Positions 1,287 to 64,000 of a DNA stretch of 64,000 nucleotides are shown here, in pieces. A program made the position numbers and the translations under genes. The stretch's first letter is position 1, and each line of letters begins with the position of its first letter. Under the pieces are notes generated by a model. The model had not been told where the DNA came from and made no database searches. It was given only the letters and a program-made list of their open reading frames with translations. Source of the stretch: an uncultured delta proteobacterium (GTDB lineage Bacteria > Desulfobacterota > Syntrophia > Syntrophales > UBA2185); NCBI GenBank assembly GCA_963729715.1, contig CAVSPA010000003.1:318957-382956 (forward strand), written 5' to 3'.

Positions 1287-1337
1287 AATAAGCCTGCACC
1301 TCCCCGGACACGATCTGCCCGTTAATTCAATGAGACT

Positions 1338-1373
1338 TGGCCTTTTTCAGGGCAACGCCCAAGAAAAAGGCCA
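1338..1373. other. Long hairpin in the pyk leader
   Basis: TGGCCTTTTTC(1338-1348)/GAAAAAGGCCA(1363-1373) plus inner GGGC/GCCC. Confidence 0.6.
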
Positions 1374-1422
1374 TGGGCGCATTGACCTCGTAAGATAGAT
1401 CACCTTACCTCTTTACTGCAAA

Positions 1423-1450
1423 ATTATATCTTTTTTTCTTTAAGAGTCAA
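1423..1450 (-). promoter_or_regulatory. Sigma70-type promoter for pyk
   Basis: Minus strand TTGACT-N16-TATAAT pointing at pyk. Confidence 0.65.
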
Positions 1451-1639
1451 AACATCTTGGACGTAATATATAAACAGATATGCTGTTTTAGTTGACAAGG
1501 AATGCCATTTGAAAGGGCGGATGTCCATCAAAATTGAACGATGCTCGACTTCAGCTTACTATAAGGAAGAGAAGTGAGGACATGGTATTCTCGATCTGTT
1601 AAAGTTGAATATCCCAAACAAAAATAACAGAAAGGAGAA

Positions 1640-2929
1640 GTGACCATGTCCGAAAGAGATTATAACAGGCAGGCAGCAAGGCGTCAAAGGATCAGTAAGA
1701 CAACACTGATAGTCGGGGTGGATGTCGGCAAAGCATTCAATGCAGTGGGATTTATGAATAAGGACGGCAACGTATTGGGCAGCTGTGCGAAGCTGTATAA
1801 CAACCGGGAAGGGTTTGAGCAGTTTGTAAAGATGATCGAAGGGTTTAAGGCAAGACATCGTCTCAGAGACGTCCTCATCGGGATGGAGCCAACGGGGCAT
1901 TACTGGAGGAAGCTTGCCTATTTTGCGAAAGAGCATGGCTATGAGGTACGCTTTGTGCGTACCACGGCGCTGAAGCATCACCGGGAGCTGGATGAGAGCT
2001 CCTCTGCCAAGAGCGACCGGAGAGATGCATTAACCATAGCGAACATTACCCGCGAGGGTAAATATATTGACACAGTCATCGAGGATGGAGTGCTGAGACA
2101 GCTGCGGACATTATCAAAGGCACGGGAGCGACTCCTCCGGTACAGTGTGAGTGCAAAGAACTCCCTGCATGCGGCCCTGGATGACTATTTTCCCGAACTG
2201 CATGAGATATTCCGGTCAATGGGGGCGCGGAGCTTGTGGGTGATTCTTGAGAAGTGTCCTTTCCCTGAGGACGTTGTGTTGATGGAGACGTCGATTCTTC
2301 AGGAATTGATTGCACGGAGTTCACGAAAGAAAGCGGGATCTGCCGGGAAGGCAAAAGCGCTCTGCGAGGCAGCTCAAAAGAGTATTGGAGTAAAGCAGAT
2401 CGGCACTGCTGACCGGTACCGGGTATGGATGTGCCTGGAAGAAGTGAAGCGGACGGTCCTGACGCTCAAGGATATGGATCGACAGCTGAAAAGCATGGTG
2501 AAGGACATTCCATCAACGCCCTATCTTATGAGCATCCCGGGCATAGGTTACCTGTCTGCAGCTGTATTTCTGGGAGAACTGGGAAACCCTGCGCATTTTC
2601 ATAATGCCCGCCAGATTGTGAAGTACGCCGGGTACGATCCCCAGGAGAGTGATTCGGGATCCCGGGTAGGCCGGAAGTTCATTTCCAAGAAGGGGCGGTG
2701 GCTCTTACGGAAGTATCTCTTCTTTATGAGTATGAGAGTGATAGTTTTGAGTAAATATTTTCAGGAGTATTATCACCGCAAATTAGAGACAAAGAACAGA
2801 GTGGGTCAGCAGCCCAGAAGGAAGGAGATTCTCTGCGCAGTGGCTATCAAGCTGATCAAAGTGATCTTTGCGCTGTTACGGGACAAACGGGGATTTGAAG
2901 ATATGGCGCCTGCTGTAGCAATTGCATAA
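1640..2929 (+). CDS. IS110-family transposase A (ATG at 1646 is an alternative start)
   Basis: GVDVGK, GMEPTG, KSDRRDA (DEDD RuvC-like domain); SIPGIG and YAGYDPQESDSG (Tnp domain with catalytic Ser motif). Confidence 0.95.
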   Translation: MTMSERDYNRQAARRQRISKTTLIVGVDVGKAFNAVGFMNKDGNVLGSCAKLYNNREGFEQFVKMIEGFKARHRLRDVLIGMEPTGHYWRKLAYFAKEHGYEVRFVRTTALKHHRELDESSSAKSDRRDALTIANITREGKYIDTVIEDGVLRQLRTLSKARERLLRYSVSAKNSLHAALDDYFPELHEIFRSMGARSLWVILEKCPFPEDVVLMETSILQELIARSSRKKAGSAGKAKALCEAAQKSIGVKQIGTADRYRVWMCLEEVKRTVLTLKDMDRQLKSMVKDIPSTPYLMSIPGIGYLSAAVFLGELGNPAHFHNARQIVKYAGYDPQESDSGSRVGRKFISKKGRWLLRKYLFFMSMRVIVLSKYFQEYYHRKLETKNRVGQQPRRKEILCAVAIKLIKVIFALLRDKRGFEDMAPAVAIA

Positions 2930-2936
2930 AACAAAA

Positions 2937-3118
2937 AAGTGGTTGTGGTGGAAGGAAGGACCGAATACCTTCGTAGGTCATAGGGCTTGCCTGATTCAGC
3001 TTGGTCAACTTCCACCACCCTTTTCGTCCTGCATAAGGTAAGTTGGGCAGAAGGCCCGTAGAATAAAAGAGGTTAGGTGAAAAGGAATAAAAAGGTTGAA
3101 GTACCACCACAACCATTT
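2937..3118 (+). ncRNA. Candidate bridge/seek-type RNA in the 3' end of IS110-A
   Basis: TGGTTGTGGTGG(2940-2951) pairs perfectly with CCACCACAACCA(3104-3115), closing ~180 nt directly after the transposase stop. Confidence 0.55.
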
Positions 3119-3250
3119 ACAGCTTTAACAGTGTGTCACAAGAAAATACTTGACTCTCTTCTCTAGAAGCAATTGACCCCGGTGCTACGCAACGGTGTTA
3201 TTCATGGAAGAAACTGGCTTTATTAAATACAATTTTATAAAGTAGGCAGC

Positions 3251-3424
3251 GGGTGCGCCCCGGCAGTCAATATCGACTCCTCACTGGTGTTTTCATACCC
3301 GTCTAGAAGCATGGTACCGAGTTTTCTTTGGTTATTACATTGGTGACAAATCATGTCTTTTCGGCATGTCAGATCCCGTTCAGGAGATTAACCGTTTTTT
3401 ACCGACTCGGGCCGGGGCATGCCC
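3251..3424 (+). ncRNA. Candidate bridge RNA in IS110-B left end (also at +1846, +4252, +59120)
   Basis: Closing stem GGGTGCGCCCCGGC/GCCGGGGCATGCCC; internal TCTAG (target-like, 3302-3306) and TCAGGAGA (donor-junction-like, 3380-3387). Confidence 0.65.
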
Positions 3425-3449
3425 CAAAAACCAATCAGGGGGCAAGTTT

Positions 3450-4850
3450 ATGGGGAACAGTCTTAAAAGGCAACAAAAGAAGTTATCCGTCCAATCTAAG
3501 GATTCCGGTATGCTATCCAAGCTTAATTTAAATGCCGCCGGCATAGATATCGGTGCAGAGGAGCATTATGTCGCCGTCCCCGAAGATCGTGATAAGCGTC
3601 CCGTGCGTCCCTTCCGTTGTTTTACATCCGATCTTCATGCGATGGCCCAGTGGCTGAAAGAGTGCCGAATCGATAGTGTTGCCATGGAGTCAACGGGTGT
3701 TTATTGGATCCCGGTGTTTCAAATTCTTGAGACTTACGGGTTTGAGGTCAAACTGGTTAATGCCCGGCATGTGAAGAATGTTCCCGGCCGTAAATCGGAT
3801 GTTCAGGATTGCCAATGGCTGCAAAATCTCCATGCCTACGGTCTTTTAAGCGGTTCGTTTCGACCGGAAGACCAGATTTGTGTTATGAGGAGTTATTGGC
3901 GCCATCGTGACAATCTTCTTCGTTATGCATCCTCTCATATCCTGCATATGCAGAAGGCGCTTACGGAGATGAATATCCAGTTGCACAAAGTCATCTCGGA
4001 CATTACCGGTGTTACCGGCATGCGTATTGTTCGTGCCATCATTGCCGGTGAACGTGACCCCCTTGTTTTGGCCGACATGAGAGATCGCCGTATTATGTGC
4101 AGTGTCCAGGACATCGTCAAATCTCTGGAAGGGGACTATCGTGAAGAACATATGTTTGCTTTAAAGCAGGCCGTTGAACTTTATGATTTTTATCACCAGA
4201 AGATTGAAGCCTGCGACCGGCAGATAGAGAATTGTTTGGCCCAATTCGACTCCAAATTAGACATAAACACTAACCCGGTGCCTCCTTCAAAAAAGGCAAA
4301 CAGAAAGCGAAGACGCAACGAGCCTAAAATCGATTTGCATACTCACTTATACCGGATAACCGGCGCCGATTTAACCCGGATTGACGGGTTGGATGTAATG
4401 ACTGTCCAGACGGTCATTAGCGAGGTTGGCCTTAATCCTGGATCTTTCCCTACGGAGAAGCATTTTGCATCCTGGCTGGGATTATGCCCGGATAATCGCA
4501 TTACCGGCGGAAAAGTAAAATCCAGTAAAACCCGTAAAGTGGTAAATCGAGCCGCTGAAGCCTTTCGTATGGCCGCTGAATCTTTGCACAGCAGCGCAAG
4601 TGCCTTAGGCGCATATTACCGCCGTATGCGTGCGAGGCTTGGGGCACCCAAAGCGATTACCGCGACAGCCCATAAGCTTGCCCGCATATTCTATCGTCTT
4701 TGGAAAAACGGAGAAGCCTATCTGGACCCCGGAGTAGACTATTATGAACAAAAATACAAAGAACGAGTAATTAAAAATATTAAAACTAAAGCCAAACAAT
4801 TAGGTTATGCCATTACTTTGGAACCTCTCGCTAGCAATGTACGTTCTTAG
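3450..4850 (+). CDS. IS110-family transposase B
   Basis: GIDIG, AMESTG, KSDVQD, IDGLD, FASWLGLCP motifs; start placed at 3450 (AGGGGG RBS) rather than 3366. Confidence 0.95.
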   Translation: MGNSLKRQQKKLSVQSKDSGMLSKLNLNAAGIDIGAEEHYVAVPEDRDKRPVRPFRCFTSDLHAMAQWLKECRIDSVAMESTGVYWIPVFQILETYGFEVKLVNARHVKNVPGRKSDVQDCQWLQNLHAYGLLSGSFRPEDQICVMRSYWRHRDNLLRYASSHILHMQKALTEMNIQLHKVISDITGVTGMRIVRAIIAGERDPLVLADMRDRRIMCSVQDIVKSLEGDYREEHMFALKQAVELYDFYHQKIEACDRQIENCLAQFDSKLDINTNPVPPSKKANRKRRRNEPKIDLHTHLYRITGADLTRIDGLDVMTVQTVISEVGLNPGSFPTEKHFASWLGLCPDNRITGGKVKSSKTRKVVNRAAEAFRMAAESLHSSASALGAYYRRMRARLGAPKAITATAHKLARIFYRLWKNGEAYLDPGVDYYEQKYKERVIKNIKTKAKQLGYAITLEPLASNVRS

Positions 4851-4883
4851 GAAACCCTTATTGGACGTGAAGTTTCTCAGGAG

Positions 4884-5010
4884 GTAAGTTGGGCAGAAGG
4901 CCCGTAGAATAAAAGAGGTTAGGTGAAAAGGAATAAAAAGGTTGAAGTACCACCACAACCATTTACAGCTTTAACAGTGTGTCACAAGAAAATACTTGAC
5001 TCTCTTCTCT
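4884..5010 (+). repeat. 127-bp duplicate of 3038-3164 (left flank of IS110-B)
   Basis: Identical at offset 1846. Confidence 0.92.
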
Positions 5011-6729
5011 AGAAGCAATTGACCCCGGTGCTACGCAACGGTGTTATTCATGGAAGAAACTGGCTTTATTAAATACAATTTTATAAAGTAGGCAGCGGGT
5101 GCGCCCCGGCAGTCAATATCGACTCCTCACTGGTGTTTTCATACCCGTCTAGAAGCATGGTACCGAGTTTTCTTTGGTTATTACATTGGTGACAAATCAT
5201 GTCTTTTCGGCATGTCAGATCCCGTTCAGGAGATTAACCGTTTTTTACCGACTCGGGCCGGGGCATGCCCCAAAAACCAATCAGGGGGCAAGTTTATGGG
5301 GAACAGTCTTAAAAGGCAACAAAAGAAGTTATCCGTCCAATCTAAGGATTCCGGTATGCTATCCAAGCTTAATTTAAATGCCGCCGGCATAGATATCGGT
5401 GCAGAGGAGCATTATGTCGCCGTCCCCGAAGATCGTGATAAGCGTCCCGTGCGTCCCTTCCGTTGTTTTACATCCGATCTTCATGCGATGGCCCAGTGGC
5501 TGAAAGAGTGCCGAATCGATAGTGTTGCCATGGAGTCAACGGGTGTTTATTGGATCCCGGTGTTTCAAATTCTTGAGACTTACGGGTTTGAGGTCAAACT
5601 GGTTAATGCCCGGCATGTGAAGAATGTTCCCGGCCGTAAATCGGATGTTCAGGATTGCCAATGGCTGCAAAATCTCCATGCCTACGGTCTTTTAAGCGGT
5701 TCGTTTCGACCGGAAGACCAGATTTGTGTTATGAGGAGTTATTGGCGCCATCGTGACAATCTTCTTCGTTATGCATCCTCTCATATCCTGCATATGCAGA
5801 AGGCGCTTACGGAGATGAATATCCAGTTGCACAAAGTCATCTCGGACATTACCGGTGTTACCGGCATGCGTATTGTTCGTGCCATCATTGCCGGTGAACG
5901 TGACCCCCTTGTTTTGGCCGACATGAGAGATCGCCGTATTATGTGCAGTGTCCAGGACATCGTCAAATCTCTGGAAGGGGACTATCGTGAAGAACATATG
6001 TTTGCTTTAAAGCAGGCCGTTGAACTTTATGATTTTTATCACCAGAAGATTGAAGCCTGCGACCGGCAGATAGAGAATTGTTTGGCCCAATTCGACTCCA
6101 AATTAGACATAAACACTAACCCGGTGCCTCCTTCAAAAAAGGCAAACAGAAAGCGAAGACGCAACGAGCCTAAAATCGATTTGCATACTCACTTATACCG
6201 GATAACCGGCGCCGATTTAACCCGGATTGACGGGTTGGATGTAATGACTGTCCAGACGGTCATTAGCGAGGTTGGCCTTAATCCTGGATCTTTCCCTACG
6301 GAGAAGCATTTTGCATCCTGGCTGGGATTATGCCCGGATAATCGCATTACCGGCGGAAAAGTAAAATCCAGTAAAACCCGTAAAGTGGTAAATCGAGCCG
6401 CTGAAGCCTTTCGTATGGCCGCTGAATCTTTGCACAGCAGCGCAAGTGCCTTAGGCGCATATTACCGCCGTATGCGTGCGAGGCTTGGGGCACCCAAAGC
6501 GATTACCGCGACAGCCCATAAGCTTGCCCGCATATTCTATCGTCTTTGGAAAAACGGAGAAGCCTATCTGGACCCCGGAGTAGACTATTATGAACAAAAA
6601 TACAAAGAACGAGTAATTAAAAATATTAAAACTAAAGCCAAACAATTAGGTTATGCCATTACTTTGGAACCTCTCGCTAGCAATGTACGTTCTTAGGAAA
6701 CCCTTATTGGACGTGAAGTTTCTCAGGAG
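5011..6729 (+). mobile_element. IS110-B copy 2
   Basis: Same sequence and identical ORF as copy 1, offset 1846. Confidence 0.93.
5296..6696 (+). CDS. IS110-family transposase B
   Basis: Identical protein to copy 1. Confidence 0.95.
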   Translation: MGNSLKRQQKKLSVQSKDSGMLSKLNLNAAGIDIGAEEHYVAVPEDRDKRPVRPFRCFTSDLHAMAQWLKECRIDSVAMESTGVYWIPVFQILETYGFEVKLVNARHVKNVPGRKSDVQDCQWLQNLHAYGLLSGSFRPEDQICVMRSYWRHRDNLLRYASSHILHMQKALTEMNIQLHKVISDITGVTGMRIVRAIIAGERDPLVLADMRDRRIMCSVQDIVKSLEGDYREEHMFALKQAVELYDFYHQKIEACDRQIENCLAQFDSKLDINTNPVPPSKKANRKRRRNEPKIDLHTHLYRITGADLTRIDGLDVMTVQTVISEVGLNPGSFPTEKHFASWLGLCPDNRITGGKVKSSKTRKVVNRAAEAFRMAAESLHSSASALGAYYRRMRARLGAPKAITATAHKLARIFYRLWKNGEAYLDPGVDYYEQKYKERVIKNIKTKAKQLGYAITLEPLASNVRS

Positions 6730-7317
6730 GCAAACAGAAAGCGAAGACGCAACGAGCCTAAAATCGATTTGCATACTCACTTATACCGGATAACCGGCGC
6801 CGATTTAACCCGGATTGACGGGTTGGATGTAATGACTGTCCAGACGGTCATTAGCGAGGTTGGCCTTAATCCTGGATCTTTCCCTACGGAGAAGCATTTT
6901 GCATCCTGGCTGGGATTATGCCCGGATAATCGCATTACCGGCGGAAAAGTAAAATCCAGTAAAACCCGTAAAGTGGTAAATCGAGCCGCTGAAGCCTTTC
7001 GTATGGCCGCTGAATCTTTGCACAGCAGCGCAAGTGCCTTAGGCGCATATTACCGCCGTATGCGTGCGAGGCTTGGGGCACCCAAAGCGATTACCGCGAC
7101 AGCCCATAAGCTTGCCCGCATATTCTATCGTCTTTGGAAAAACGGAGAAGCCTATCTGGACCCCGGAGTAGACTATTATGAACAAAAATACAAAGAACGA
7201 GTAATTAAAAATATTAAAACTAAAGCCAAACAATTAGGTTATGCCATTACTTTGGAACCTCTCGCTAGCAATGTACGTTCTTAGGAAACCCTTATTGGAC
7301 GTGAAGTTTCTCAGGAG
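6730..7317 (+). pseudogene. 588-bp partial IS110-B (3' third of transposase plus right end)
   Basis: Tandem duplicate of 6142-6729; encodes only the C-terminal 171 aa. Confidence 0.92.
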
Positions 7318-7318
7318 G

Positions 7319-7416
7319 AAGAGGTTAGGTGAAAAGGAATAAAAAGGTTGAAGTACCACCACAACCATTTACAGCTTTAACAGTGTGTCACAAGAAAATA
7401 CTTGACTCTCTTCTCT
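7319..7416 (+). repeat. 98-bp duplicate of 3067-3164
   Basis: Identical at offset 4252. Confidence 0.9.
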
Positions 7417-9135
7417 AGAAGCAATTGACCCCGGTGCTACGCAACGGTGTTATTCATGGAAGAAACTGGCTTTATTAAATACAATTTTATAAAGTAGGCA
7501 GCGGGTGCGCCCCGGCAGTCAATATCGACTCCTCACTGGTGTTTTCATACCCGTCTAGAAGCATGGTACCGAGTTTTCTTTGGTTATTACATTGGTGACA
7601 AATCATGTCTTTTCGGCATGTCAGATCCCGTTCAGGAGATTAACCGTTTTTTACCGACTCGGGCCGGGGCATGCCCCAAAAACCAATCAGGGGGCAAGTT
7701 TATGGGGAACAGTCTTAAAAGGCAACAAAAGAAGTTATCCGTCCAATCTAAGGATTCCGGTATGCTATCCAAGCTTAATTTAAATGCCGCCGGCATAGAT
7801 ATCGGTGCAGAGGAGCATTATGTCGCCGTCCCCGAAGATCGTGATAAGCGTCCCGTGCGTCCCTTCCGTTGTTTTACATCCGATCTTCATGCGATGGCCC
7901 AGTGGCTGAAAGAGTGCCGAATCGATAGTGTTGCCATGGAGTCAACGGGTGTTTATTGGATCCCGGTGTTTCAAATTCTTGAGACTTACGGGTTTGAGGT
8001 CAAACTGGTTAATGCCCGGCATGTGAAGAATGTTCCCGGCCGTAAATCGGATGTTCAGGATTGCCAATGGCTGCAAAATCTCCATGCCTACGGTCTTTTA
8101 AGCGGTTCGTTTCGACCGGAAGACCAGATTTGTGTTATGAGGAGTTATTGGCGCCATCGTGACAATCTTCTTCGTTATGCATCCTCTCATATCCTGCATA
8201 TGCAGAAGGCGCTTACGGAGATGAATATCCAGTTGCACAAAGTCATCTCGGACATTACCGGTGTTACCGGCATGCGTATTGTTCGTGCCATCATTGCCGG
8301 TGAACGTGACCCCCTTGTTTTGGCCGACATGAGAGATCGCCGTATTATGTGCAGTGTCCAGGACATCGTCAAATCTCTGGAAGGGGACTATCGTGAAGAA
8401 CATATGTTTGCTTTAAAGCAGGCCGTTGAACTTTATGATTTTTATCACCAGAAGATTGAAGCCTGCGACCGGCAGATAGAGAATTGTTTGGCCCAATTCG
8501 ACTCCAAATTAGACATAAACACTAACCCGGTGCCTCCTTCAAAAAAGGCAAACAGAAAGCGAAGACGCAACGAGCCTAAAATCGATTTGCATACTCACTT
8601 ATACCGGATAACCGGCGCCGATTTAACCCGGATTGACGGGTTGGATGTAATGACTGTCCAGACGGTCATTAGCGAGGTTGGCCTTAATCCTGGATCTTTC
8701 CCTACGGAGAAGCATTTTGCATCCTGGCTGGGATTATGCCCGGATAATCGCATTACCGGCGGAAAAGTAAAATCCAGTAAAACCCGTAAAGTGGTAAATC
8801 GAGCCGCTGAAGCCTTTCGTATGGCCGCTGAATCTTTGCACAGCAGCGCAAGTGCCTTAGGCGCATATTACCGCCGTATGCGTGCGAGGCTTGGGGCACC
8901 CAAAGCGATTACCGCGACAGCCCATAAGCTTGCCCGCATATTCTATCGTCTTTGGAAAAACGGAGAAGCCTATCTGGACCCCGGAGTAGACTATTATGAA
9001 CAAAAATACAAAGAACGAGTAATTAAAAATATTAAAACTAAAGCCAAACAATTAGGTTATGCCATTACTTTGGAACCTCTCGCTAGCAATGTACGTTCTT
9101 AGGAAACCCTTATTGGACGTGAAGTTTCTCAGGAG
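7417..9135 (+). mobile_element. IS110-B copy 3
   Basis: Same sequence as copy 1, offset 4252; followed by unique DNA from 9136. Confidence 0.93.
7702..9102 (+). CDS. IS110-family transposase B
   Basis: Identical protein to copy 1. Confidence 0.95.
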   Translation: MGNSLKRQQKKLSVQSKDSGMLSKLNLNAAGIDIGAEEHYVAVPEDRDKRPVRPFRCFTSDLHAMAQWLKECRIDSVAMESTGVYWIPVFQILETYGFEVKLVNARHVKNVPGRKSDVQDCQWLQNLHAYGLLSGSFRPEDQICVMRSYWRHRDNLLRYASSHILHMQKALTEMNIQLHKVISDITGVTGMRIVRAIIAGERDPLVLADMRDRRIMCSVQDIVKSLEGDYREEHMFALKQAVELYDFYHQKIEACDRQIENCLAQFDSKLDINTNPVPPSKKANRKRRRNEPKIDLHTHLYRITGADLTRIDGLDVMTVQTVISEVGLNPGSFPTEKHFASWLGLCPDNRITGGKVKSSKTRKVVNRAAEAFRMAAESLHSSASALGAYYRRMRARLGAPKAITATAHKLARIFYRLWKNGEAYLDPGVDYYEQKYKERVIKNIKTKAKQLGYAITLEPLASNVRS

Positions 9136-9510
9136 AGGAAGGTAGTCTCACCCACCACATCTATCATAACTGAAGTTGTTCCTAGAAGGATTACAACCCG
9201 TTATCAATATCGATGCGGAAGATCGTACACCTCATCTCTGTACGAATGGGTGTAAACACTATAATGGTCTCACTGATGTCAATGATGGGAAGTTCAAGGA
9301 ATTCTGTTGGGAAGATGGATGCAAAAAAATTTACGAAGGTCATTATTGTAGATTGCATGATAGTAATAAACCCATATTCTAGTCAGGATCTCTGTTCAGT
9401 TCATACGGGGTCGGAAGACCAGTAACTTTTGAGGGAGGGGGAAATTTGGTCTGTATTTGAAGACCAGCATGCTTTATAGTGTATTAAACTACTAATAGGA
9501 GGAACAAAAT

Positions 9511-9693
9511 ATGCCCACTGTGATTATCGAAGCAGATGAAGGAAGAACAGTCGAGCAAAAGAGGGGTCTGGTGAAAGACATTACCGATGCCGTTTGCAGG
9601 AATTTCAAAGTCCCTCCGGATGCTGTGACCATTTTTATTCACGAAGGGAAAAAGGAAAATCGCGGGAAAGCGGGAAAGCTCGCTATAGACTGA
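9511..9693 (+). CDS. 4-oxalocrotonate tautomerase family protein
   Basis: 60 aa, N-terminal Pro after Met, EGRTVEQKRGLV motif, AGGAGG RBS. Confidence 0.92.
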   Translation: MPTVIIEADEGRTVEQKRGLVKDITDAVCRNFKVPPDAVTIFIHEGKKENRGKAGKLAID

Positions 9694-10104
9694 GGCCTCC
9701 ACCACATTTATTCTCCCTCGTTCGAGCCGCTGTGTTTCGGGAATTTCTTCAGTACGCAGACGTCTGCGCTTTTTAGTAAATTCAGACCTCACCTGTCCGA
9801 TAGGCGTAGTCCTTATGGAGATCCTCATAACTTTATCTGATTAGTACGCCCGTCTTTAGATGAAGAGAAGTCGCGGCTGCCGAAGGTCGTTTCAATAGAG
9901 GCCGTTCCTTCTATTTTGTGAGGGGTTTTCCATGATCCAGCTCAGACAGGATACAAGACACATGGAAAGGGTGAGCAGGAACAATATACTAAGATCCACC
10001 ATCCATTTTTTTGCTTTCAGATTATTCATGCATAATGATTTATCAACAATGACCAAGGCAGCTCATTTGTTTTTCATGCTTGCCATGGGGGCTATATATG
10101 CATA

Positions 10105-51073: not shown

Positions 51074-52907
51074 GTGCGCCACGAGGCTGCACAAGAGATG
51101 AGGGTAGGTCCCTCGAAGCCGGCTTGCAGGGGCTGGCTTCAAACCACCTTAAGCTGCAATGGTAAAGAGTCATTGTGGTGAGCATTAAGGAAAAGGCATG
51201 GCAAAAGACCATGTCAGGTGAGGTTCAGGGAGGCGAGCGCAAGCGAACTACTTCTGAGGTGTCGAAATGAATTGGACGATGTCAAAACTGGAGGGCTTAC
51301 TGATCTCCAGGATAAGTTCAAGGGGAACCTGTTTACTGATTGGGCGGCATCCGGCATAAAGGTAGCGCGAACCTGATCCGGGCTTTTGTGTGGAACGTGG
51401 GAACCTGTCGTCCCGATGCTAAGGGAGAAATTCAAGTGGAGGAAACCACAAGAATGAGAGTACCAATGCGGGACACGGGGGCGGAGCAGCCAGTATTAGG
51501 GATGAAGGTTCTGTAATGGAACTGGACTGAAGGGGCTGCGTTGTTCAGCTTTATTTTCAAGTCAACCAGAAATGGGAGGAGCTTCGTGAATAAAGCAAAG
51601 CCGTTTTGTATTTCGAAATGGGAAGTATGGGAAGCCTACAAACTGGTGAAGGCAAACAAAGGAGCAGCCGGAGTAGACGGGCAATCCATTGCAGAATTTG
51701 AAGAGGATGTGAAAGATAACCTTTTTAAGATCTGGAATCGGATGTCCTCAGGCAGCTATTTTCCACCACCTGTACGTCGGGTCGATATACCGAAGGACAA
51801 TGGGAGAACTAGGCCACTGGGAATACCAACAGTGGCAGACCGCATTGCCCAGACGGTAGTCAAACGATACCTGGAGCCGATCTTGGAAGAATATTTCCAT
51901 CCGGATTCATATGGGTACCGTCCAGGGAAGTCCGCGAGAGAGGCCATAGGGGTTGCACGTCAGCGGTGCTGGCGATACGACTGGGTACTTGACCTCGACA
52001 TCAAACGTTTCTTTGACAATATCGACCATGATCTGTTGATGCGGGCGGTAAGGAAACATACTGATTGCAAATGGGTGCTTCTGTACATCGAAAGATGGCT
52101 GAATGCCCCGGCGCAATTGGCAATTGGCAGCCTGATTAATCGGGATAAAGGGACTCCGCAAGGGGGAGTGGTTAGTCCATTACTTGCGAATCTCTTTTTA
52201 CATTACGCGTTCGATACGTGGATGAAGAGGCAGTATCCTCAGATTGCATTCGAGCGGTATGCCGATGATGGGATATGTCATTGTCGGAGCAAGGCCGAAG
52301 CTGAGAGGCTTCGTGTAGCGATTGAAAAGCGTTTTGCTGAATGTGGGTTGGAGCTTAACTTGCAGAAGACGAAGATTGTTTACTGTAAGGAAGATGATCG
52401 GCGAGGAAATTATCCTGAGCAGAAATTTGATTTCCTGGGCTTTACATTCCGGCCCCGGAGAGCGAAAAATCGAAAGGGTAAATTATTTGTCGGATTTATG
52501 CCTGCAATCAGCAACAAAGCCAAGAAATCGATATGCGATGCTATGAGGCAATGGAAAATGCACCGGCAAACAGACAAATCTCTGGATGAGCTGGCTCGAG
52601 TGGTCAACCCAGTGTTAAGGGGTTGGATTAACTATTACGGCAGTTTCTATAAATCAGCTCTTTACCGTGTTTTTCAGCAACTGAACAATATTCTTGTTCG
52701 GTGGGCATCCCGGAAATACAAAAGATTGAGGAGGAATAACCAGAGGGCGAGGCAATGGTTGCAAGGCGTATTTCACAGGCAGCCTAAGCTATTTGCTCAT
52801 TGGCAACTCTCAAAAGGTAAGGCTGGACAATAGGAGCTGGATGACGGGAGACTGTCACGTCCAGTTTTGGGAGAGCGTGAGGGTGAAATCCCCTCGCGCC
52901 ACTCGAC
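51074..52907 (+). mobile_element. Group II intron (bacterial class D-like, IIB)
   Basis: 5' GTGCG; domain V GAGCTGGATGACGGGAGACTGTCACGTCCAGTT; domain VI ending CTCGAC; EBS1-like TTACTGA complementary to the 5' exon. Confidence 0.93.
51586..52833 (+). CDS. ltrA: Group II intron reverse transcriptase/maturase without endonuclease domain
   Basis: KANKGAAGVD, RPLGIP, GTPQGG, YADD, RGWINYY; GTG start after GGGAGG. Confidence 0.95.
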   Translation: MNKAKPFCISKWEVWEAYKLVKANKGAAGVDGQSIAEFEEDVKDNLFKIWNRMSSGSYFPPPVRRVDIPKDNGRTRPLGIPTVADRIAQTVVKRYLEPILEEYFHPDSYGYRPGKSAREAIGVARQRCWRYDWVLDLDIKRFFDNIDHDLLMRAVRKHTDCKWVLLYIERWLNAPAQLAIGSLINRDKGTPQGGVVSPLLANLFLHYAFDTWMKRQYPQIAFERYADDGICHCRSKAEAERLRVAIEKRFAECGLELNLQKTKIVYCKEDDRRGNYPEQKFDFLGFTFRPRRAKNRKGKLFVGFMPAISNKAKKSICDAMRQWKMHRQTDKSLDELARVVNPVLRGWINYYGSFYKSALYRVFQQLNNILVRWASRKYKRLRRNNQRARQWLQGVFHRQPKLFAHWQLSKGKAGQ

Positions 52908-54090: not shown

Positions 54091-54726
54091 TCATATACCT
54101 CCGGCAAAGCCGGAGGCTTGAATGTATGAACCGCTCAAAGCGGATTTAATTTACTGAACCACCTGAAGGTGGTTACTCCTCAAACATGTTGAGCTGATCG
54201 AGACGCCGGTCTTCTTGCTCTTGTTTTCTGATGTATTCTCGAATGGTGGCTTCATCTCTGCCAACGGTGGAAACTTCATAACCTCTGGCCCAAAAGTGCT
54301 GACCGGTGAAATTCTTGCGATGACCCATAAAGTTTCTCGCAATATGTATCGCGCTCTTGCCTTTGATGAAACCAACCACTTGCGCTACCGCATGCTTCGG
54401 CGGAATGGAGATCAACATATGCACATGATCAACTCGAAGATGACCCTCGATAACCTGACTCTCTTTCTGAATCGCGAGGTCCCTGAATGTTGACCCCAAA
54501 TATCTCCGCAGTTGCTCGTAAATCGCTTTCCTCCGATACTTCGGTATCCATACCACATGGTACTTGCATTCCCATGACGTATGGCTTAAACTCTGCCTGT
54601 CGTTCAACTGAAACCTCCTTCCCCGTAAACTTCGAACGGTTCACGGATAGGAGGTTTCCTTTATATTCCCGGAATTGTCAAACTCTGGGAGTCCCCCGGC
54701 AGAGCCGGGGGTTTACCCAGGATTAA
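54091..54726 (-). mobile_element. IS200-family element, copy 1 (636 bp)
   Basis: tnpA plus subterminal hairpins CCCCCGGC/GCCGGGGG and CCTCCGGC/GCCGGAGG; ends from comparison with copy 2. Confidence 0.92.
54173..54607 (-). CDS. tnpA: IS200/IS605 Y1 transposase
   Basis: YHVVWIPKYR, DHVH (HUH), FWARGY, IREYI. Confidence 0.95.
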   Translation of the reverse strand: MNDRQSLSHTSWECKYHVVWIPKYRRKAIYEQLRRYLGSTFRDLAIQKESQVIEGHLRVDHVHMLISIPPKHAVAQVVGFIKGKSAIHIARNFMGHRKNFTGQHFWARGYEVSTVGRDEATIREYIRKQEQEDRRLDQLNMFEE

Positions 54727-55022
54727 TTATCGGGACGGCGGCTACGCGGACTGGCGGATGCCGACAAACGATGAGTTCGCAGGATTGCATGAGCCGAGCA
54801 AGAAGGATCGACTGGGTTTCCAGTTAACAGAATTCATCGACCTTATATCTTGCTTCCAATGGGCCTCAGGCGGCCAAATGATTATAAATAAAATTGGTCT
54901 CTTGACTTTTCAATGAATTAAGCGCACAAAGTGAAGCGCATTTATATAGGACATCGGCAAACGGTTAACAACTAATCTGAACCCTTTTTACAAGGGCATT
55001 GCCATGAGGAGATTAACGAAAC

Positions 55023-58707: not shown

Positions 58708-58830
58708 CGCACTCCCTTCTCAGGATTGAATGTGTTTTATTTTCATCCAATAAATCGGATAATTCAAGGAGTATTTGATAACAGGGGTGATCATTGGTCA
58801 GTTTAGGAACTGATGGTTGATGAGATGTAA

Positions 58831-59466
58831 TTAATCCTGGGTAAACCCCCGGCTCTGCCGGGGGACTCCCAGAGTTTGACAATTCCGGGAATATAAAGGA
58901 AACCTCCTATCCGTGAACCGTTCGAAGTTTACGGGGAAGGAGGTTTCAGTTGAACGACAGGCAGAGTTTAAGCCATACGTCATGGGAATGCAAGTACCAT
59001 GTGGTATGGATACCGAAGTATCGGAGGAAAGCGATTTACGAGCAACTGCGGAGATATTTGGGGTCAACATTCAGGGACCTCGCGATTCAGAAAGAGAGTC
59101 AGGTTATCGAGGGTCATCTTCGAGTTGATCATGTGCATATGTTGATCTCCATTCCGCCGAAGCATGCGGTAGCGCAAGTGGTTGGTTTCATCAAAGGCAA
59201 GAGCGCGATACATATTGCGAGAAACTTTATGGGTCATCGCAAGAATTTCACCGGTCAGCACTTTTGGGCCAGAGGTTATGAAGTTTCCACCGTTGGCAGA
59301 GATGAAGCCACCATTCGAGAATACATCAGAAAACAAGAGCAAGAAGACCGGCGTCTCGATCAGCTCAACATGTTTGAGGAGTAACCACCTTCAGGTGGTT
59401 CAGTAAATTAAATCCGCTTTGAGCGGTTCATACATTCAAGCCTCCGGCTTTGCCGGAGGTATATGA
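58831..59466 (+). mobile_element. IS200-family element, copy 2 (636 bp)
   Basis: Reverse complement of 54091-54726. Confidence 0.92.
58950..59384 (+). CDS. tnpA: IS200/IS605 Y1 transposase
   Basis: Identical protein to copy 1. Confidence 0.95.
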   Translation: MNDRQSLSHTSWECKYHVVWIPKYRRKAIYEQLRRYLGSTFRDLAIQKESQVIEGHLRVDHVHMLISIPPKHAVAQVVGFIKGKSAIHIARNFMGHRKNFTGQHFWARGYEVSTVGRDEATIREYIRKQEQEDRRLDQLNMFEE

Positions 59467-59846
59467 TTGGAGGCAGCAAACACTTCTTCCTCTTGTTTTT
59501 GGCCATTTCCTTCAGAATGCAACATTTCAAATGGAAATCTTTGATTTTGTTCTTTACATAATCGTCAGTCTTTATAAATAAGAGCAGAAAAGCCCAAAGC
59601 GATCAAGTTGGCAAAATCTCGCTTTGGGCTTCTCTGGTAATAACTTCTCTCCATAAGGAGGAAGCGTATGTGATAGTGAGTATTCCGGACCAAATCGGCC
59701 ACTGATTCCGTTTCAAATCGGCCACCCATTCCGTTTGAAATCGGCCGGCGATTCCGGAGCAAATCGCCACCCCCTGTCAGAGCGAAATAGACGCTGGATA
59801 ATTCAATTGAGAGCCATTAAAACTCCTCAAAAAAAGGAGATTGGGA

Positions 59847-61409
59847 ATGGCCAACAGGAGATTATCCATGCGAAAGATAAAAGAAGTATTGCGGCTCAAA
59901 TGGGGGAATAACCTCTCTGTCCGCCAGATTGCCATAAGTTGTGACATTGCCCGCAGCACCGTTCGGGATTATCTTCATCGCGCTCTGATAGCGGGACTTG
60001 CATGGCCCGTCCCCGATGAACTCGATGACACCACCCTCGGACATCTATTGTATCCTCCCGCATGTTGTGTGTCTGCGGGTAAGAAGCCTGTGCCCTCCAT
60101 GGAGGATATCCATCAGGACTTGAAAAAGAAGGGGGTCACCCTTCAGCTCCTCTGGTATGAATACAAACGGGCTCATCCCGACGGGTACCAATACAGCCAG
60201 TTCTGCTATCTTTACCACCGATGGGCGGGTAAACTCGATGTATGCCTCAGGCAGACCTACCGTGCCGGGGAAAAACTCTTTGTCGATTATGCCGGCCGGA
60301 CAATGCCGGTTACCGACCCGGTCACCGGCGGGATCAGGGATGCCTATCTCTTTGTGGCCACCCTTGGCGCCAGCAGCTATACGTATGTCGAGGCAGGTTT
60401 TGCTCAGGATCTCCCTTCCTGGATTTCTTCCCATGTGCGGGCATTTGCTTATTTTGGTGGCGTCACCGAGATTACTATCCCCGATAATTTAAAAGTTGGT
60501 GTTGCCAAACCCTGCCGGTATGAACCGGACATCAATCCGACTTACCATGACATGGCCAGGCACTACGGGACGGTAGTTATCCCCGCCAGGGTTGCCAAAC
60601 CCCGGGATAAGGCCAAGGTCGAGTCGGCCGTCGGGGTCGCTGAAAGATGGATCGTTGCCGCCTTGAGGAACCACACCTTCTTCAGTCTGGAGGAGTTGAA
60701 TAAGGCCATTGCCGAAAAACTAGGCGAGTTCAACGACCGCAAGTTCCAGAAGATGGATACCACACGCAGGGAGCTGTTCGAGAAGATCGACAGGCCTGCA
60801 TTAAGGCCGCTTCCCCTTGAGCCGTATGAGTATGCCGAATGGAAGAAAGCCAGGGTCAATGTCGACTACCACGTTGAGGTCTTCGGGCATTATTACAGTG
60901 TTCCTTATCAGCTTGTCAAAGAGCAGGTGGATGTGCGCCTCACGTCAACTACGGTGGAGATCCTGTTCAAGAATCGCCGCGTTGCCAGCCATCAGCTGAA
61001 CGACCGCCGGGGCATACATACGACACTGGAAGAGCATATGCCGAAAGCCCACCAGAGATATCTTCAATGGACGCCTTCCCGTATCATCCGCTGGGCTGGT
61101 CAAAACGGCCCTAACACCCAGAACCTGGTGACCTGCATCATGGAAAGGAGAAAACATCCTGAACAAGGCTTCCGTTCTTCCCTCGGTATCATGAGGCTGG
61201 GGAAGCGTTACTCGCCGGAGCGGCTGGAGGCGGCCTGCGGCAGGGCGCTCGCGCTCAAGGCCTATAGCTATAAAAACGTGGAATCGATCCTCAAACAGGG
61301 TCTCGACCGGCAGGCCTTGCCGGAACATAATGCCGAGGTGAAACCGGTCCTCCATTACAACATCAGGGGAAAAGAATATTATCACGAAAAGGAGACAGAC
61401 CATGCTTAA
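59847..61409 (+). CDS. istA: IS21 transposase
   Basis: FVDYAG, PDNLK, PRDKAKVE (DDE). Confidence 0.95.
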   Translation: MANRRLSMRKIKEVLRLKWGNNLSVRQIAISCDIARSTVRDYLHRALIAGLAWPVPDELDDTTLGHLLYPPACCVSAGKKPVPSMEDIHQDLKKKGVTLQLLWYEYKRAHPDGYQYSQFCYLYHRWAGKLDVCLRQTYRAGEKLFVDYAGRTMPVTDPVTGGIRDAYLFVATLGASSYTYVEAGFAQDLPSWISSHVRAFAYFGGVTEITIPDNLKVGVAKPCRYEPDINPTYHDMARHYGTVVIPARVAKPRDKAKVESAVGVAERWIVAALRNHTFFSLEELNKAIAEKLGEFNDRKFQKMDTTRRELFEKIDRPALRPLPLEPYEYAEWKKARVNVDYHVEVFGHYYSVPYQLVKEQVDVRLTSTTVEILFKNRRVASHQLNDRRGIHTTLEEHMPKAHQRYLQWTPSRIIRWAGQNGPNTQNLVTCIMERRKHPEQGFRSSLGIMRLGKRYSPERLEAACGRALALKAYSYKNVESILKQGLDRQALPEHNAEVKPVLHYNIRGKEYYHEKETDHA

Positions 61410-62139
61410 TCAACAAACAATCGAAAAACTACACATCATGAAACTCACCGGCATGGCGGAAGCGTTCCAGGAGCAATCAGCACAAACTGATATGGACAGG
61501 CTCTCATTCGAAGAACGCTTCGGGCTCATCGTTGACCGCCAGTGGACATGGAAAGAAGACTGCCGCCTGCAGCGCTATCTCAAGAATGCAAAACTTAAAC
61601 TCAATGCCTGTGTTGAAGATATCGACTATAAAGCATCCAGGGGCATCGATCAGTCCGTCATGATGAAGCTCATCGCCTGCGATTGGATCAGAAAGCATCA
61701 GAACATCCTCATTACCGGGCCCACCGGCGCCGGGAAAACCTTCATCGCCTGCGCGCTCGCCAACAAGGCCTGCCGGGAAGGATACCGCAGCTTCTATATA
61801 CGAAGCCCCCGGTTCTCCTATCAGATGTCCCTGGCCAGAGGAGACGGCAGCTACGGAAATATTATCAATAAGCTCTCCCGGGCCCATGTCCTGGTGATTG
61901 ACGATCTCGGCCTTGCTCCCCTGACGGATACGGAAAGAAGAGACCTTCTGGAAGTTATCGAGGAAAGGCACGGCCATGCATCAACGATCGTCGTCAGTCA
62001 GCTGCCCATGGATCACTGGCACGAGCAGATCGGGGATCCCACGATCGCCGATGCTATCCTCGACCGCCTGATCCACAACGCACATAAAATAAACCTGAAG
62101 GGAGGATCACTGAGAAAAAAATACGCAAACTTGACCTGA
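61402..62139 (+). CDS. istB: IS21 helper ATPase
   Basis: GPTGAGKT, IDDLG, ADAILDRL. Confidence 0.96.
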   Translation: MLNQQTIEKLHIMKLTGMAEAFQEQSAQTDMDRLSFEERFGLIVDRQWTWKEDCRLQRYLKNAKLKLNACVEDIDYKASRGIDQSVMMKLIACDWIRKHQNILITGPTGAGKTFIACALANKACREGYRSFYIRSPRFSYQMSLARGDGSYGNIINKLSRAHVLVIDDLGLAPLTDTERRDLLEVIEERHGHASTIVVSQLPMDHWHEQIGDPTIADAILDRLIHNAHKINLKGGSLRKKYANLT

Positions 62140-62284
62140 ACAATCGTTTATGAGAAAGAACTAAAAAACCAGCGTCGCTTCGCTCCGGCAGGGCGGCCGA
62201 TTTGGTCCGGAACAGCCGGCCGGTTTGCTCCGGAACAGGTGGCCGATTTTAGCGGAATACACAATAGTATACTTATACTACCCT

Positions 62285-64000
62285 AGAAGCAATTGACCCC
62301 GGTGCTACGCAACGGTGTTATTCATGGAAGAAACTGGCTTTATTAAATACAATTTTATAAAGTAGGCAGCGGGTGCGCCCCGGCAGTCAATATCGACTCC
62401 TCACTGGTGTTTTCATACCCGTCTAGAAGCATGGTACCGAGTTTTCTTTGGTTATTACATTGGTGACAAATCATGTCTTTTCGGCATGTCAGATCCCGTT
62501 CAGGAGATTAACCGTTTTTTACCGACTCGGGCCGGGGCATGCCCCAAAAACCAATCAGGGGGCAAGTTTATGGGGAACAGTCTTAAAAGGCAACAAAAGA
62601 AGTTATCCGTCCAATCTAAGGATTCCGGTATGCTATCCAAGCTTAATTTAAATGCCGCCGGCATAGATATCGGTGCAGAGGAGCATTATGTCGCCGTCCC
62701 CGAAGATCGTGATAAGCGTCCCGTGCGTCCCTTCCGTTGTTTTACATCCGATCTTCATGCGATGGCCCAGTGGCTGAAAGAGTGCCGAATCGATAGTGTT
62801 GCCATGGAGTCAACGGGTGTTTATTGGATCCCGGTGTTTCAAATTCTTGAGACTTACGGGTTTGAGGTCAAACTGGTTAATGCCCGGCATGTGAAGAATG
62901 TTCCCGGCCGTAAATCGGATGTTCAGGATTGCCAATGGCTGCAAAATCTCCATGCCTACGGTCTTTTAAGCGGTTCGTTTCGACCGGAAGACCAGATTTG
63001 TGTTATGAGGAGTTATTGGCGCCATCGTGACAATCTTCTTCGTTATGCATCCTCTCATATCCTGCATATGCAGAAGGCGCTTACGGAGATGAATATCCAG
63101 TTGCACAAAGTCATCTCGGACATTACCGGTGTTACCGGCATGCGTATTGTTCGTGCCATCATTGCCGGTGAACGTGACCCCCTTGTTTTGGCCGACATGA
63201 GAGATCGCCGTATTATGTGCAGTGTCCAGGACATCGTCAAATCTCTGGAAGGGGACTATCGTGAAGAACATATGTTTGCTTTAAAGCAGGCCGTTGAACT
63301 TTATGATTTTTATCACCAGAAGATTGAAGCCTGCGACCGGCAGATAGAGAATTGTTTGGCCCAATTCGACTCCAAATTAGACATAAACACTAACCCGGTG
63401 CCTCCTTCAAAAAAGGCAAACAGAAAGCGAAGACGCAACGAGCCTAAAATCGATTTGCATACTCACTTATACCGGATAACCGGCGCCGATTTAACCCGGA
63501 TTGACGGGTTGGATGTAATGACTGTCCAGACGGTCATTAGCGAGGTTGGCCTTAATCCTGGATCTTTCCCTACGGAGAAGCATTTTGCATCCTGGCTGGG
63601 ATTATGCCCGGATAATCGCATTACCGGCGGAAAAGTAAAATCCAGTAAAACCCGTAAAGTGGTAAATCGAGCCGCTGAAGCCTTTCGTATGGCCGCTGAA
63701 TCTTTGCACAGCAGCGCAAGTGCCTTAGGCGCATATTACCGCCGTATGCGTGCGAGGCTTGGGGCACCCAAAGCGATTACCGCGACAGCCCATAAGCTTG
63801 CCCGCATATTCTATCGTCTTTGGAAAAACGGAGAAGCCTATCTGGACCCCGGAGTAGACTATTATGAACAAAAATACAAAGAACGAGTAATTAAAAATAT
63901 TAAAACTAAAGCCAAACAATTAGGTTATGCCATTACTTTGGAACCTCTCGCTAGCAATGTACGTTCTTAGGAAACCCTTATTGGACGTGAAGTTTCTCAG
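62285..64000 (+). mobile_element. IS110-B copy 4 (last 3 bp outside window)
   Basis: Same sequence as copy 1 at offset 59120 with a different left flank. Confidence 0.93.
62570..63970 (+). CDS. IS110-family transposase B
   Basis: Identical protein to copy 1. Confidence 0.95.
   Translation: MGNSLKRQQKKLSVQSKDSGMLSKLNLNAAGIDIGAEEHYVAVPEDRDKRPVRPFRCFTSDLHAMAQWLKECRIDSVAMESTGVYWIPVFQILETYGFEVKLVNARHVKNVPGRKSDVQDCQWLQNLHAYGLLSGSFRPEDQICVMRSYWRHRDNLLRYASSHILHMQKALTEMNIQLHKVISDITGVTGMRIVRAIIAGERDPLVLADMRDRRIMCSVQDIVKSLEGDYREEHMFALKQAVELYDFYHQKIEACDRQIENCLAQFDSKLDINTNPVPPSKKANRKRRRNEPKIDLHTHLYRITGADLTRIDGLDVMTVQTVISEVGLNPGSFPTEKHFASWLGLCPDNRITGGKVKSSKTRKVVNRAAEAFRMAAESLHSSASALGAYYRRMRARLGAPKAITATAHKLARIFYRLWKNGEAYLDPGVDYYEQKYKERVIKNIKTKAKQLGYAITLEPLASNVRS

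What the first reader, a model, noticed from the sequence alone, without database searches (positions are those of the whole stretch)
3251..3424. Candidate bridge RNA of IS110-B with readable target and donor guides and an AG core
Seen: a 14-bp closing stem (one mismatch, two G-U) encloses ~174 nt between an AT-rich -10-like tract (TATAAA 3236-3241) and the transposase RBS. Inside, GTCTAG (3301-3306) matches the left flank of both independent insertion sites (ctCTAG, ccCTAG). TTTTCT (3322-3327) can pair with AG plus a purine-rich right flank (AGAGGA) through G-U wobble. TCAGGAGA (3380-3387) equals the predicted circle junction TCAGG-AG-A. GTTTTT (3394-3399) can wobble-pair with AGAAGC. Known: the IS621 bridge RNA has this target-loop then donor-loop guide order. 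Inference: a reprogrammable recombinase with an AG core whose U-rich right guides give relaxed specificity, which could explain the array. The matches are short.
Basis: partly seen in the sequence, partly recalled or inferred. Interest (0 to 1): 0.8.

Follow-up and report, generated by a model that had tools for sequence, protein, structure and literature searches.

The report
Reversed bridge RNA, fold-back donor end
This is a real guide RNA that aims a jumping gene's DNA-splicing enzyme, but it reads its DNA sites backwards compared with the textbook example, and one guide seems to read the element's own end only when that end folds back on itself, a testable hint that a folded single DNA strand is what gets inserted.

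Summary
Empty sites in relatives put the AG core at 3168-3169, not 3165-3166. Across 52-67 homolog clusters, four guides covary with DNA: 3277-3283 (right flank), 3303-3311 (left flank, core, two handshake bases), 3331-3339 and 3380-3387 (right end). The U-rich 'right guides' do not covary. The layout is IS621's mechanism read on the opposite strand, the order reported for IS1111, although the RNA lies upstream of the gene. Unexpectedly, guide 3331-3339 does not match the left-end terminus. It matches, same-sense, a site about 27 nt inside (3197-3203), behind a DNA hairpin and before an inverted copy of the right end's subterminal motif. The spacing fits a fold-back donor with a 14-nt bubble. 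The ends match the studied element ISPpu9, whose palindrome is unexplained. Fold-back is inferred: no strand bias in folding energy, no transcript or activity shown. The tandem array fits known one-sided (half-match) joints. The scan's notes held no earlier report of this architecture.

The parts
3163..3167 (+). Left target flank (5 nt) read by the target loop; part of the right end of the neighbouring element IS110-A
   Evidence: 5 of 5 match to 3303-3307 at 3 of 4 distinct left flanks, 4 of 5 at the fourth; empty site in relatives
3168..3169 (+). Left core dinucleotide AG (CT on the minus strand)
   Evidence: Empty site in 7 of 8 related loci; AG at this guide position in 132 of 138 loci without being required
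3170..3171 (+). First two bases of the element; handshake bases for 3310-3311
   Evidence: Match in 52 and 43 of 55 clusters vs 38.7 and 17.4 shuffled
3179..3195 (.). DNA hairpin in the left end (extends to 3174-3200)
   Evidence: median z -2.0, 27 of 52 clusters below -2; this copy weak (z -1.7)
3197..3203 (+). Internal site S, same-sense match to guide 3331-3337 (6 of 7)
   Evidence: 4.35 of 6 vs 2.60 shuffled, z 13; no signal at shifted windows (z 2.5 or less)
3209..3215 (+). Inverted copy of the right-end subterminal motif, 40 nt inside the left end
   Evidence: 52 of 58 clusters vs 18.9 shuffled; variable position -7 complementary in 47 of 49 vs 19.8
3236..3241 (+). Possible -10 hexamer of an internal promoter
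   Evidence: TAnnnT in the matching window in 27 of 52 clusters vs 12.6 shuffled; the sigma-70 scan found no full promoter
3251..3424 (+). Bridge RNA: closing stem 3251-3264/3411-3424; target-loop stem 3271-3274/3313-3316; hairpins 3285-3301 and 3341-3378
   Evidence: Consensus of 71 sequences: 94.4% of cells paired, 11 of 18 pairs change on both sides, 0 of 500 shuffles reach it, slid controls 52% or less
3277..3283 (+).
   Evidence: Positions +1..+5 pair in 37-56% vs about 26% (61 clusters); best-register z 8.9
3303..3311 (+). 3' guide of the target loop: 5 nt left flank + AG + 2 handshake nt
   Evidence: Perfect in 48 of 67 clusters vs 2.2% for non-cognate guides
3331..3339 (+). 5' guide of the donor loop: matches internal site S, not the left-end terminus
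3380..3387 (+). 3' guide of the donor loop: 5 nt right end + AG; 3387 a weak handshake with the right flank
   Evidence: 60 of 65 perfect; +1 match 15 of 55 vs 8.6
3450..4850 (+). IS110 recombinase, 466 aa, D33/E81/D117/D120; Thr352 at the place of IS621 Ser241
4871..4883 (+). Right end: subterminal motif 4871-4877, donor arm 4877-4881, core AG 4882-4883
4884..9135 (+). Tandem array: captured 3038-3169, copy 2 (5016-6727), partial copy (6730-7315), captured 3067-3169, copy 3 (7422-9133); all three joints start at a right-end core
9136..9141 (+). True right target flank (rest of the IS110-A right end)
62290..64000 (+). Further identical copy at a different target, cut by the contig end

Best explanation
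3251-3424 is the bridge RNA of a recently spreading IS110 element (3170-4881) of the ISPpu9 kind. SHOWN by covariation: each of two loops has a 5' and a 3' guide. The 3' guides read 5 nt + core on the minus strand (left flank; right end). The 5' target guide reads the plus strand of the right flank. The two bases after the core in the target loop match the element's first two bases. This is IS621's arrangement (CT core, 5 nt + core + 2 handshake bases) read on the strand opposite to the gene. INFERRED from IS621: the minus (CT) strand is cut 3' of CT and exchanged first, with handshake pairing driving insertion. SHOWN: the 5' donor guide matches site S behind a hairpin inside the left end, in the sense that pairs with the minus strand. 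INFERRED: the minus strand of the circle junction folds back so that S stands in for the missing partner strand, giving a pre-opened donor of about 14 nt (7 + core + 5) closed by the hairpin on one side and the inverted repeat on the other. One strand is inserted and replication completes the copy. The array arose from right-end-only (half-match) joints.
For: Guides. Nearest-neighbour cluster pairs, cognate better/tie/worse than swapped: donor 3' guide 18/8/0, target 5' guide 17/2/5, handshake 11/13/2, guide-S 16/10/0, inverted repeat 14/11/1. Guide-S mismatches lean to wobbles that suit the minus strand (23 vs 8; shuffled ratio 0.55). Spacing: median 7 nt from core to hairpin, 12 nt from hairpin to repeat, difference of 1-3 nt in 34 of 52. 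Held-out plasmid loci: RNA motif 13 of 15, repeat 11 of 13, guide-S p 0.00045, right-flank guide p 0.006. ISPpu9: AG crossover, 43-bp A box with palindrome ending in the inverted copy of the B-box motif (my reading of Tables S4/S5), also kept by its MITE. Single-strand excision and one-strand insertion are reported for IS621 and CazIS110-1.
Against: No transcript, binding or activity shown here. Both strands fold equally well (minus more stable in 29, plus in 23 of 52; hairpin wobbles 16 vs 13). Mismatches in the inverted repeat lean to G-T on the plus strand (9 vs 3 inner, 14 vs 3 outer), against minus-strand pairing of the repeat. In this copy the fold-back is weak (z -2.0 plus, -1.4 minus) and the single-sequence optimum differs from the consensus RNA fold (-57.7 vs -51.1 kcal/mol with guides open). 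Guide-S match is only 2-3 of 6 in 7 of 11 held-out loci. The register is 1 nt off the simple model. Mutating the ISPpu9 palindrome did not stop circle formation (PMC12288879). Clusters are related, so p-values overstate.
Confidence: 0.55

Rival explanations
1. Same RNA and guides, but the donor is double-stranded: the left-end hairpin extrudes as a cruciform in the supercoiled circle, the guide reads S in the extruded minus arm, and the inverted repeats are protein-binding sites like IS1111 subterminal repeats that never pair with each other.
For: No strand bias in folding; repeat mismatches do not favour minus-strand pairing; covarying repeats are expected for protein sites too; CazIS110-1 prefers a double-stranded donor for one joint.
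Against: The hairpin is short and in this copy weak, a poor cruciform. The repeat-to-core and repeat-to-S spacings match each other within 1-3 nt in 34 of 52 clusters, as fold-back predicts.
Confidence: 0.25
2. The bridge RNA is real and reversed, but the guide-S match has another cause: S and 3331-3337 are copies of one another or share an RNA partner, or the guide binds S at a separate step (excision or regulation), and the donor loop works with one arm only.
For: The match is partial in an alphaproteobacterial subgroup; one-armed donor recognition is reported for IS621; weak same-sense signal also with the segment after the donor guide (z 3.2).
Against: The match is kept across recombinases 45-91% identical to this one, position-specific (z 13.5 at zero shift, 2.5 or less elsewhere), wobble-directional, and no shared RNA partner was found (z 2.0). 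S lies upstream of the likely transcription start.
Confidence: 0.15
3. One reading: IS621 order, core at 3165-3166, U-rich right guides with relaxed specificity that generate the array.
For: The words are present and wobble pairing is possible on paper.
Against: Empty sites exclude that core; the U-rich segments do not covary; relatives L079 and L080 keep the U-rich segment but have pyrimidine-led right flanks.
Confidence: 0.02
4. The region is only a structured 5' leader regulating translation, or an N-terminal coding extension from 3366, with no guide role.
For: The ISPpu9 leader is a regulatory structured 5'-UTR with an antisense RNA (PMC8450116); an open frame starts at 3366.
Against: A leader cannot explain covariation with flanking host DNA; frame offsets are even (28/25/22) and the ATG is rare. 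A regulatory role may coexist.
Confidence: 0.03

Closest known systems
ISPpu9 / MITEPpu9 of Pseudomonas putida (IS110 group; PMC12288879, PMC8450116)
   Same: Crossover at AG on the gene strand; about 43-bp left box with a palindrome; 16-bp right box of the same GTT-N2-N5-AG build; long leader starting about 84 nt inside the left end; palindromic targets; tandem copies. The cluster representative listed for ISPpu9 shares the diagnostic protein motifs by eye.
   Different: In the parts I read, no guides are mapped for ISPpu9, the A-box/B-box inverted repeat is not mentioned and the palindrome is left unexplained. This element has different guides and Thr at the catalytic Ser position.
IS621 bridge recombinase (PMC11208160, PMC11208158)
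   Same: Two-loop RNA in the left end, target loop first, hairpin-G-U-9-nt guide register, CT core, handshake bases, DEDD plus Tnp domains.
   Different: Sites are inverted relative to the gene; the 5' donor guide reads an internal site behind a hairpin; 7-9 bp subterminal repeat with the left copy 28-44 nt inside; protein is distant (E 1e-5).
IS1111-group seekRNAs (ISEc11, ISKpn4, ISPa11; PMC11187229)
   Same: Top-strand match precedes bottom-strand match; subterminal inverted repeats.
   Different: Their RNA lies downstream of the gene and their repeats lie within a few bases of the ends; here the RNA is upstream.
Integron attC sites (recalled; PMC11641012 seen only as a search listing)
   Same: By analogy: one folded strand as recombination substrate, single strand exchange, replication finishes.
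   Different: Tyrosine recombinase, no guide RNA, no homology.

Membership tests
IS110 family | DEDD RuvC-like domain plus Tnp (Transposase_20) domain | tested here: met
   PF01548, PF02371 above cut-off; NF033542 280.6 bits vs 140; D33, E81, D117, D120
IS110 family | Catalytic serine in the Tnp domain | tested here: inconclusive
   Thr352 aligns with IS621 Ser241; T in 29, S in 28, unscored 18 of 75 clusters; activity with Thr untested
IS110 family | Core dinucleotide shared by both ends and the empty target | tested here: met
IS110 family | Structured non-coding RNA whose loops covary with target and donor | tested here: met
IS110 family | RNA is expressed, binds the recombinase and is reprogrammable | not testable with these tools
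   Only assembled contigs were available
IS621-type bridge RNA | 5' guide matches the left arm, 3' guide pairs the right arm, CT core on the gene strand | tested here: not met
   Order and core are reversed relative to the gene; met only if the minus strand is taken as top
IS621-type bridge RNA | Handshake bases next to the core pair with the partner DNA | tested here: met
   Target loop 52 and 43 of 55; donor loop weak, 15 of 55 vs 8.6
IS621-type bridge RNA | Both donor guides read the arms adjoining the core | tested here: not met
   5' donor guide vs left-end terminus 2.02 of 6, shuffled 2.34; vs internal site 4.35, shuffled 2.60
IS621-type bridge RNA | Promoter formed across the circle junction | tested here: inconclusive
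   Best consensus match at the junction (9 of 12) lies wholly in the left end; internal -10-like enrichment
IS1111 group | Non-coding RNA downstream of the gene | tested here: not met
   Left end 280 nt, right end 31 nt
IS1111 group | Subterminal inverted repeats close to both ends | tested here: inconclusive
   Repeat present and covarying, but the left copy lies 28-44 nt inside
IS1111 group | Top-strand match 5' of bottom-strand match | tested here: met
   against PMC11187229 passages
ISPpu9-like IS110 | AG crossover, A box with palindrome, B box | tested here: met
   Compared by eye with Tables S4-S6
ISPpu9-like IS110 | Recombinase in the same clade | tested here: inconclusive
   Motifs agree by eye with the cluster representative; no alignment or tree with ISPpu9 itself was computed

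The most novel reading that the evidence does not exclude
A widespread IS110 branch that includes ISPpu9 has evolved a self-folding single-stranded donor: the excised CT strand pairs its two subterminal repeats and a hairpin to present a ready-opened 14-nt site, and the donor loop of the bridge RNA binds both sides of that bubble on one DNA strand. This would be an RNA-guided, integron-like single-strand integrase, in half of the branch with a threonine nucleophile.
Probability: 0.4. Interest if true: 0.85.

Novelty: new variant of a known kind. Interest (0 to 1): 0.7.

Why it matters
Whether IS110 circles are inserted as single or double strands is disputed in recent papers. This branch offers sequence-level predictions and a cultured member, ISPpu9, with circle and transposition assays already running and a palindrome its authors could not explain. 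A donor that folds from one strand could let a bridge recombinase use single-stranded cargo.

Tried and rejected
Rfam: 0 matches at E 1 or less in 1300-9700. First covariation scan in fixed offsets found no right-arm guide (best z 3.2-3.8 among 17,172 cells), and an alignment-free search of the 3' sides of both loops found none for the right flank; the guide was 5' of a variable hairpin and appeared only after re-anchoring. The idea that the two bases after AG are the true core was dropped: they match the left end, not the target, and the mirrored IS621 register explains them. Donor 5' guide vs left-end terminus: no signal in any register. Donor 5' segment as a fixed RNA stem: only two weak cells, although it can pair that way in this copy. 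Strand asymmetry of the fold-back: none in energy. Expression: two RNA runs had no contig over 3155-3388; these are assemblies with small shares of the stretch and say nothing. Array reality: no joints listed; one run has a contig spanning exactly 3036-4881 at about twice the depth of the upstream piece, which fits the repeat unit but also fits two upstream alleles merging. No exact match of the target-side pattern in viral contigs. Rows dropped: 25 of 172 loci lacked the N-terminal gene part (8) or the RNA motif (17); later tests use only clusters with the junctions found (49-67 of 75); of 16 plasmid loci fetched out of 468 records, L186 was left out because another element cuts its left end, and L187 had been seen by eye first. 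Scan notes: nothing by sequence or place; one note on a miniature IS110 elsewhere did not bear on this.

Full report
Setting. The finding lies in the left non-coding end of an IS110 element with a 466-aa recombinase (3450-4850). The genome holds 7 full copies, at least 99.9% identical, and one partial copy, at four distinct left flanks. Three full copies and the partial one form an array at 3170-9133 inside the right end of a second, unrelated IS110 (IS110-A, gene 1646-2929).

Observation. The quoted words are all present and the stretch folds better than shuffles (z -2.5). The boundary is wrong, though. Eight loci with IS110-A-like ends were fetched from relatives; the 7 that reach the site (6 genomes) are empty and keep both AGs. 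The core is therefore 3168-3169 and 4882-4883, and the element is 3170-4881.

Data set. Homolog loci came from genomes, metagenomes and the window's phylum. Of 172 examined, 147 carry the two-loop motif and fall into 75 clusters at 85% RNA identity; 25 were dropped. The consensus of 71 sequences has a closing stem, a target-loop stem and two like hairpins, each followed by G-U and a 9-nt guide; 94.4% of cells pair, 11 of 18 pairs change on both sides, and no shuffle or slid control approaches this. The single-sequence optimum of this copy differs from that consensus.

Guides. 3303-3307 matches the left flank: perfect in 48 of 67 clusters against 2.2% for other clusters' guides; 3380-3384 matches the right end in 60 of 65 against 10.9%. 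The left junction was chosen by best match, so the permutation is the test there; the right end was found by a guide-independent motif. The two bases after AG in the target loop match the element's first two bases (52 and 43 of 55; shuffled 38.7 and 17.4) and not the right flank (17 and 13; shuffled 15.7 and 12.8). The right-flank guide lies 5' of the first hairpin, at 3277-3283, antisense to the plus strand (37-56% vs about 26% per position; z 8.9). In this genome the three distinct true right flanks pair with it at 4-5 of 5 positions. ATG 3366 is not conserved (5 of 75).

What this resembles. In IS621 the 3' guide covers 5 nt, the CT core and two handshake bases that pair with the partner DNA after exchange, and the CT strand is cut first (PMC11208158, passages). 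The guides here reproduce that pattern exactly if the minus strand is taken as the CT strand. Top-strand-first order is reported for IS1111 elements, whose RNA lies downstream, and the opposite order for the upstream-RNA element ISEc21 (PMC11187229, passages and section 13). This branch combines upstream RNA with IS1111 order.

The unexpected part. The 5' donor guide (3331-3339) should be antisense to the start of the left end. It is not (2.02 of 6 vs 2.34 shuffled). It matches, same-sense, a site about 27 nt inside (3197-3203): 4.35 of 6 vs 2.60, z 13, and 16 better, 10 tied, 0 worse in nearest-neighbour pairs. The signal is confined to that window, and mismatches lean to wobbles that suit pairing with the minus strand (23 vs 8). 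The site lies between a GC-rich DNA hairpin (27 of 52 clusters with z below -2) and an inverted copy of the right end's subterminal motif 28-44 nt inside the left end (52 of 58 vs 18.9; variable position complementary in 47 of 49 vs 19.8 with an independent anchor). Median spacings are 7 nt from core to hairpin and 5 nt from core to repeat, which is IS621's 7 + 2 + 5 window, with 12 nt opposite. In 15 held-out plasmid loci the RNA motif was found in 13, the repeat in 11 of those, and the guide-site match held (3.27 vs 2.55, p 0.00045), though it was only 2-3 of 6 in 7 of 11.

Mechanism. Both donor guides pair with the minus strand, yet the two sides of one loop must bind antiparallel strands. 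Folding that strand back at the hairpin is the only geometry I found that satisfies both. The internal site then replaces the missing partner strand, and the repeats may close the bubble. No conserved core lies opposite AG on the folded strand, which fits a single strand exchange completed by replication. Single-stranded circles and one-strand insertion are reported for IS621 and CazIS110-1 (10.64898/2026.08.31.748434, abstract and sections 8-9; 10.1101/2025.10.25.684509, parts 1-3 of 5). Against this: folding energy shows no strand bias (29 vs 23); repeat mismatches lean to plus-strand G-T (9 vs 3 and 14 vs 3); this copy folds weakly (z -2.0, -1.4). A cruciform in duplex DNA with protein-bound repeats remains a close rival. 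The likeness to integron attC sites is recalled, not tested.

Closest known element. ISPpu9 recombines at AG, has a 43-bp A box with a palindrome and a 16-bp B box, both kept by its MITE; mutating the palindrome left circle formation intact and the authors suggest a role in integration (PMC12288879, passages, section 17, section 18 part 1 of 2, supplement part 2 of 3). By my reading of those tables the A box ends in the inverted copy of the B-box motif, 35 nt inside. Its transcript starts about 84 nt inside the left end (PMC8450116, passages), matching 3251 here. The protein cluster labelled ISPpu9 shares the motifs of this recombinase by eye; none of the 29 similar rows found by three motif words carried an ISfinder name.

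The array. All three joints begin at a right-end core. Two share AG with the captured upstream site (3036-3037, 4294-4295); the third does not. None fits the right-flank guide. Tandem IS110 expansion with right-end-only boundaries is described (10.64898/2026.08.14.744561, passages and section 8). The array is therefore ordinary if real; raw reads were not available to confirm it.

Is it in print? Nine library searches and the parts read of PMC11208160 (abstract, sections 6, 12, half of the extended legends, supplement files 1 and 3 by search; file 2 unreadable), PMC13626964 (abstract, section 4, passages), PMC13604230, 10.1101/2025.05.14.653916 and 10.64898/2026.03.19.712850 (passages), and 10.64898/2026.10.21.760802 (passages, section 8) showed no guide map for this branch and no internal donor site. 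Figures and bioRxiv supplements were not visible; the last paper built 86 bridge-RNA models and may include this RNA.

Verdict. A bridge RNA: about 0.95. Reversed polarity with handshake: about 0.9. Donor guide reads the internal site: about 0.75. Folded donor of either kind: about 0.65-0.8; single-stranded fold-back specifically: about 0.4-0.55. New variant of a known kind; interest 0.7.

Noticed in passing
window 4503-4505 (recombinase residue 352): Threonine at the place of the catalytic serine, in 29 of 57 scored clusters; 7 near-identical copies suggest the enzyme was recently active. One search listed no paper on it.
   Followed up: partly
window 1551-3169 and 9136-9141: IS110-A, with its long non-coding region downstream of the gene (2930-3169), presumably holding its own bridge RNA. 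Its right end is the target of this element, here and in contig C4.
   Followed up: partly
L187:290-330 and 1947-2070: Nostoc plasmid: a chain of elements of this branch in which each target guide matches the right end of the previous element.
   Followed up: no
L001, L042, L056, L089, L112, L147; L023, L143; L019, L116, L130: Many members target palindromic intergenic repeats, with several unrelated elements sharing one repeat family.
   Followed up: no
L186:380-600; L199:430-560; L200: Members with AA instead of AG at the core positions of the guides, including a copy common on Enterobacter and Citrobacter plasmids whose left end is cut by another element.
   Followed up: no
window 51541-52833: Group II intron reverse transcriptase/maturase.
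   Followed up: no
window 59715-62249: IS21-type element (istA, istB) with inverted ends; a copy of the IS110 element sits 40 nt downstream of it.
   Followed up: no
window 54091-54729 and 58828-59466: 639-nt perfect inverted repeat, 4.1 kb apart, around PAS/LuxR and TPR genes.
   Followed up: no
L060-L078: Planctomycete members have a longer left and right end; their left junction was mostly not found by the fixed search window.
   Followed up: no
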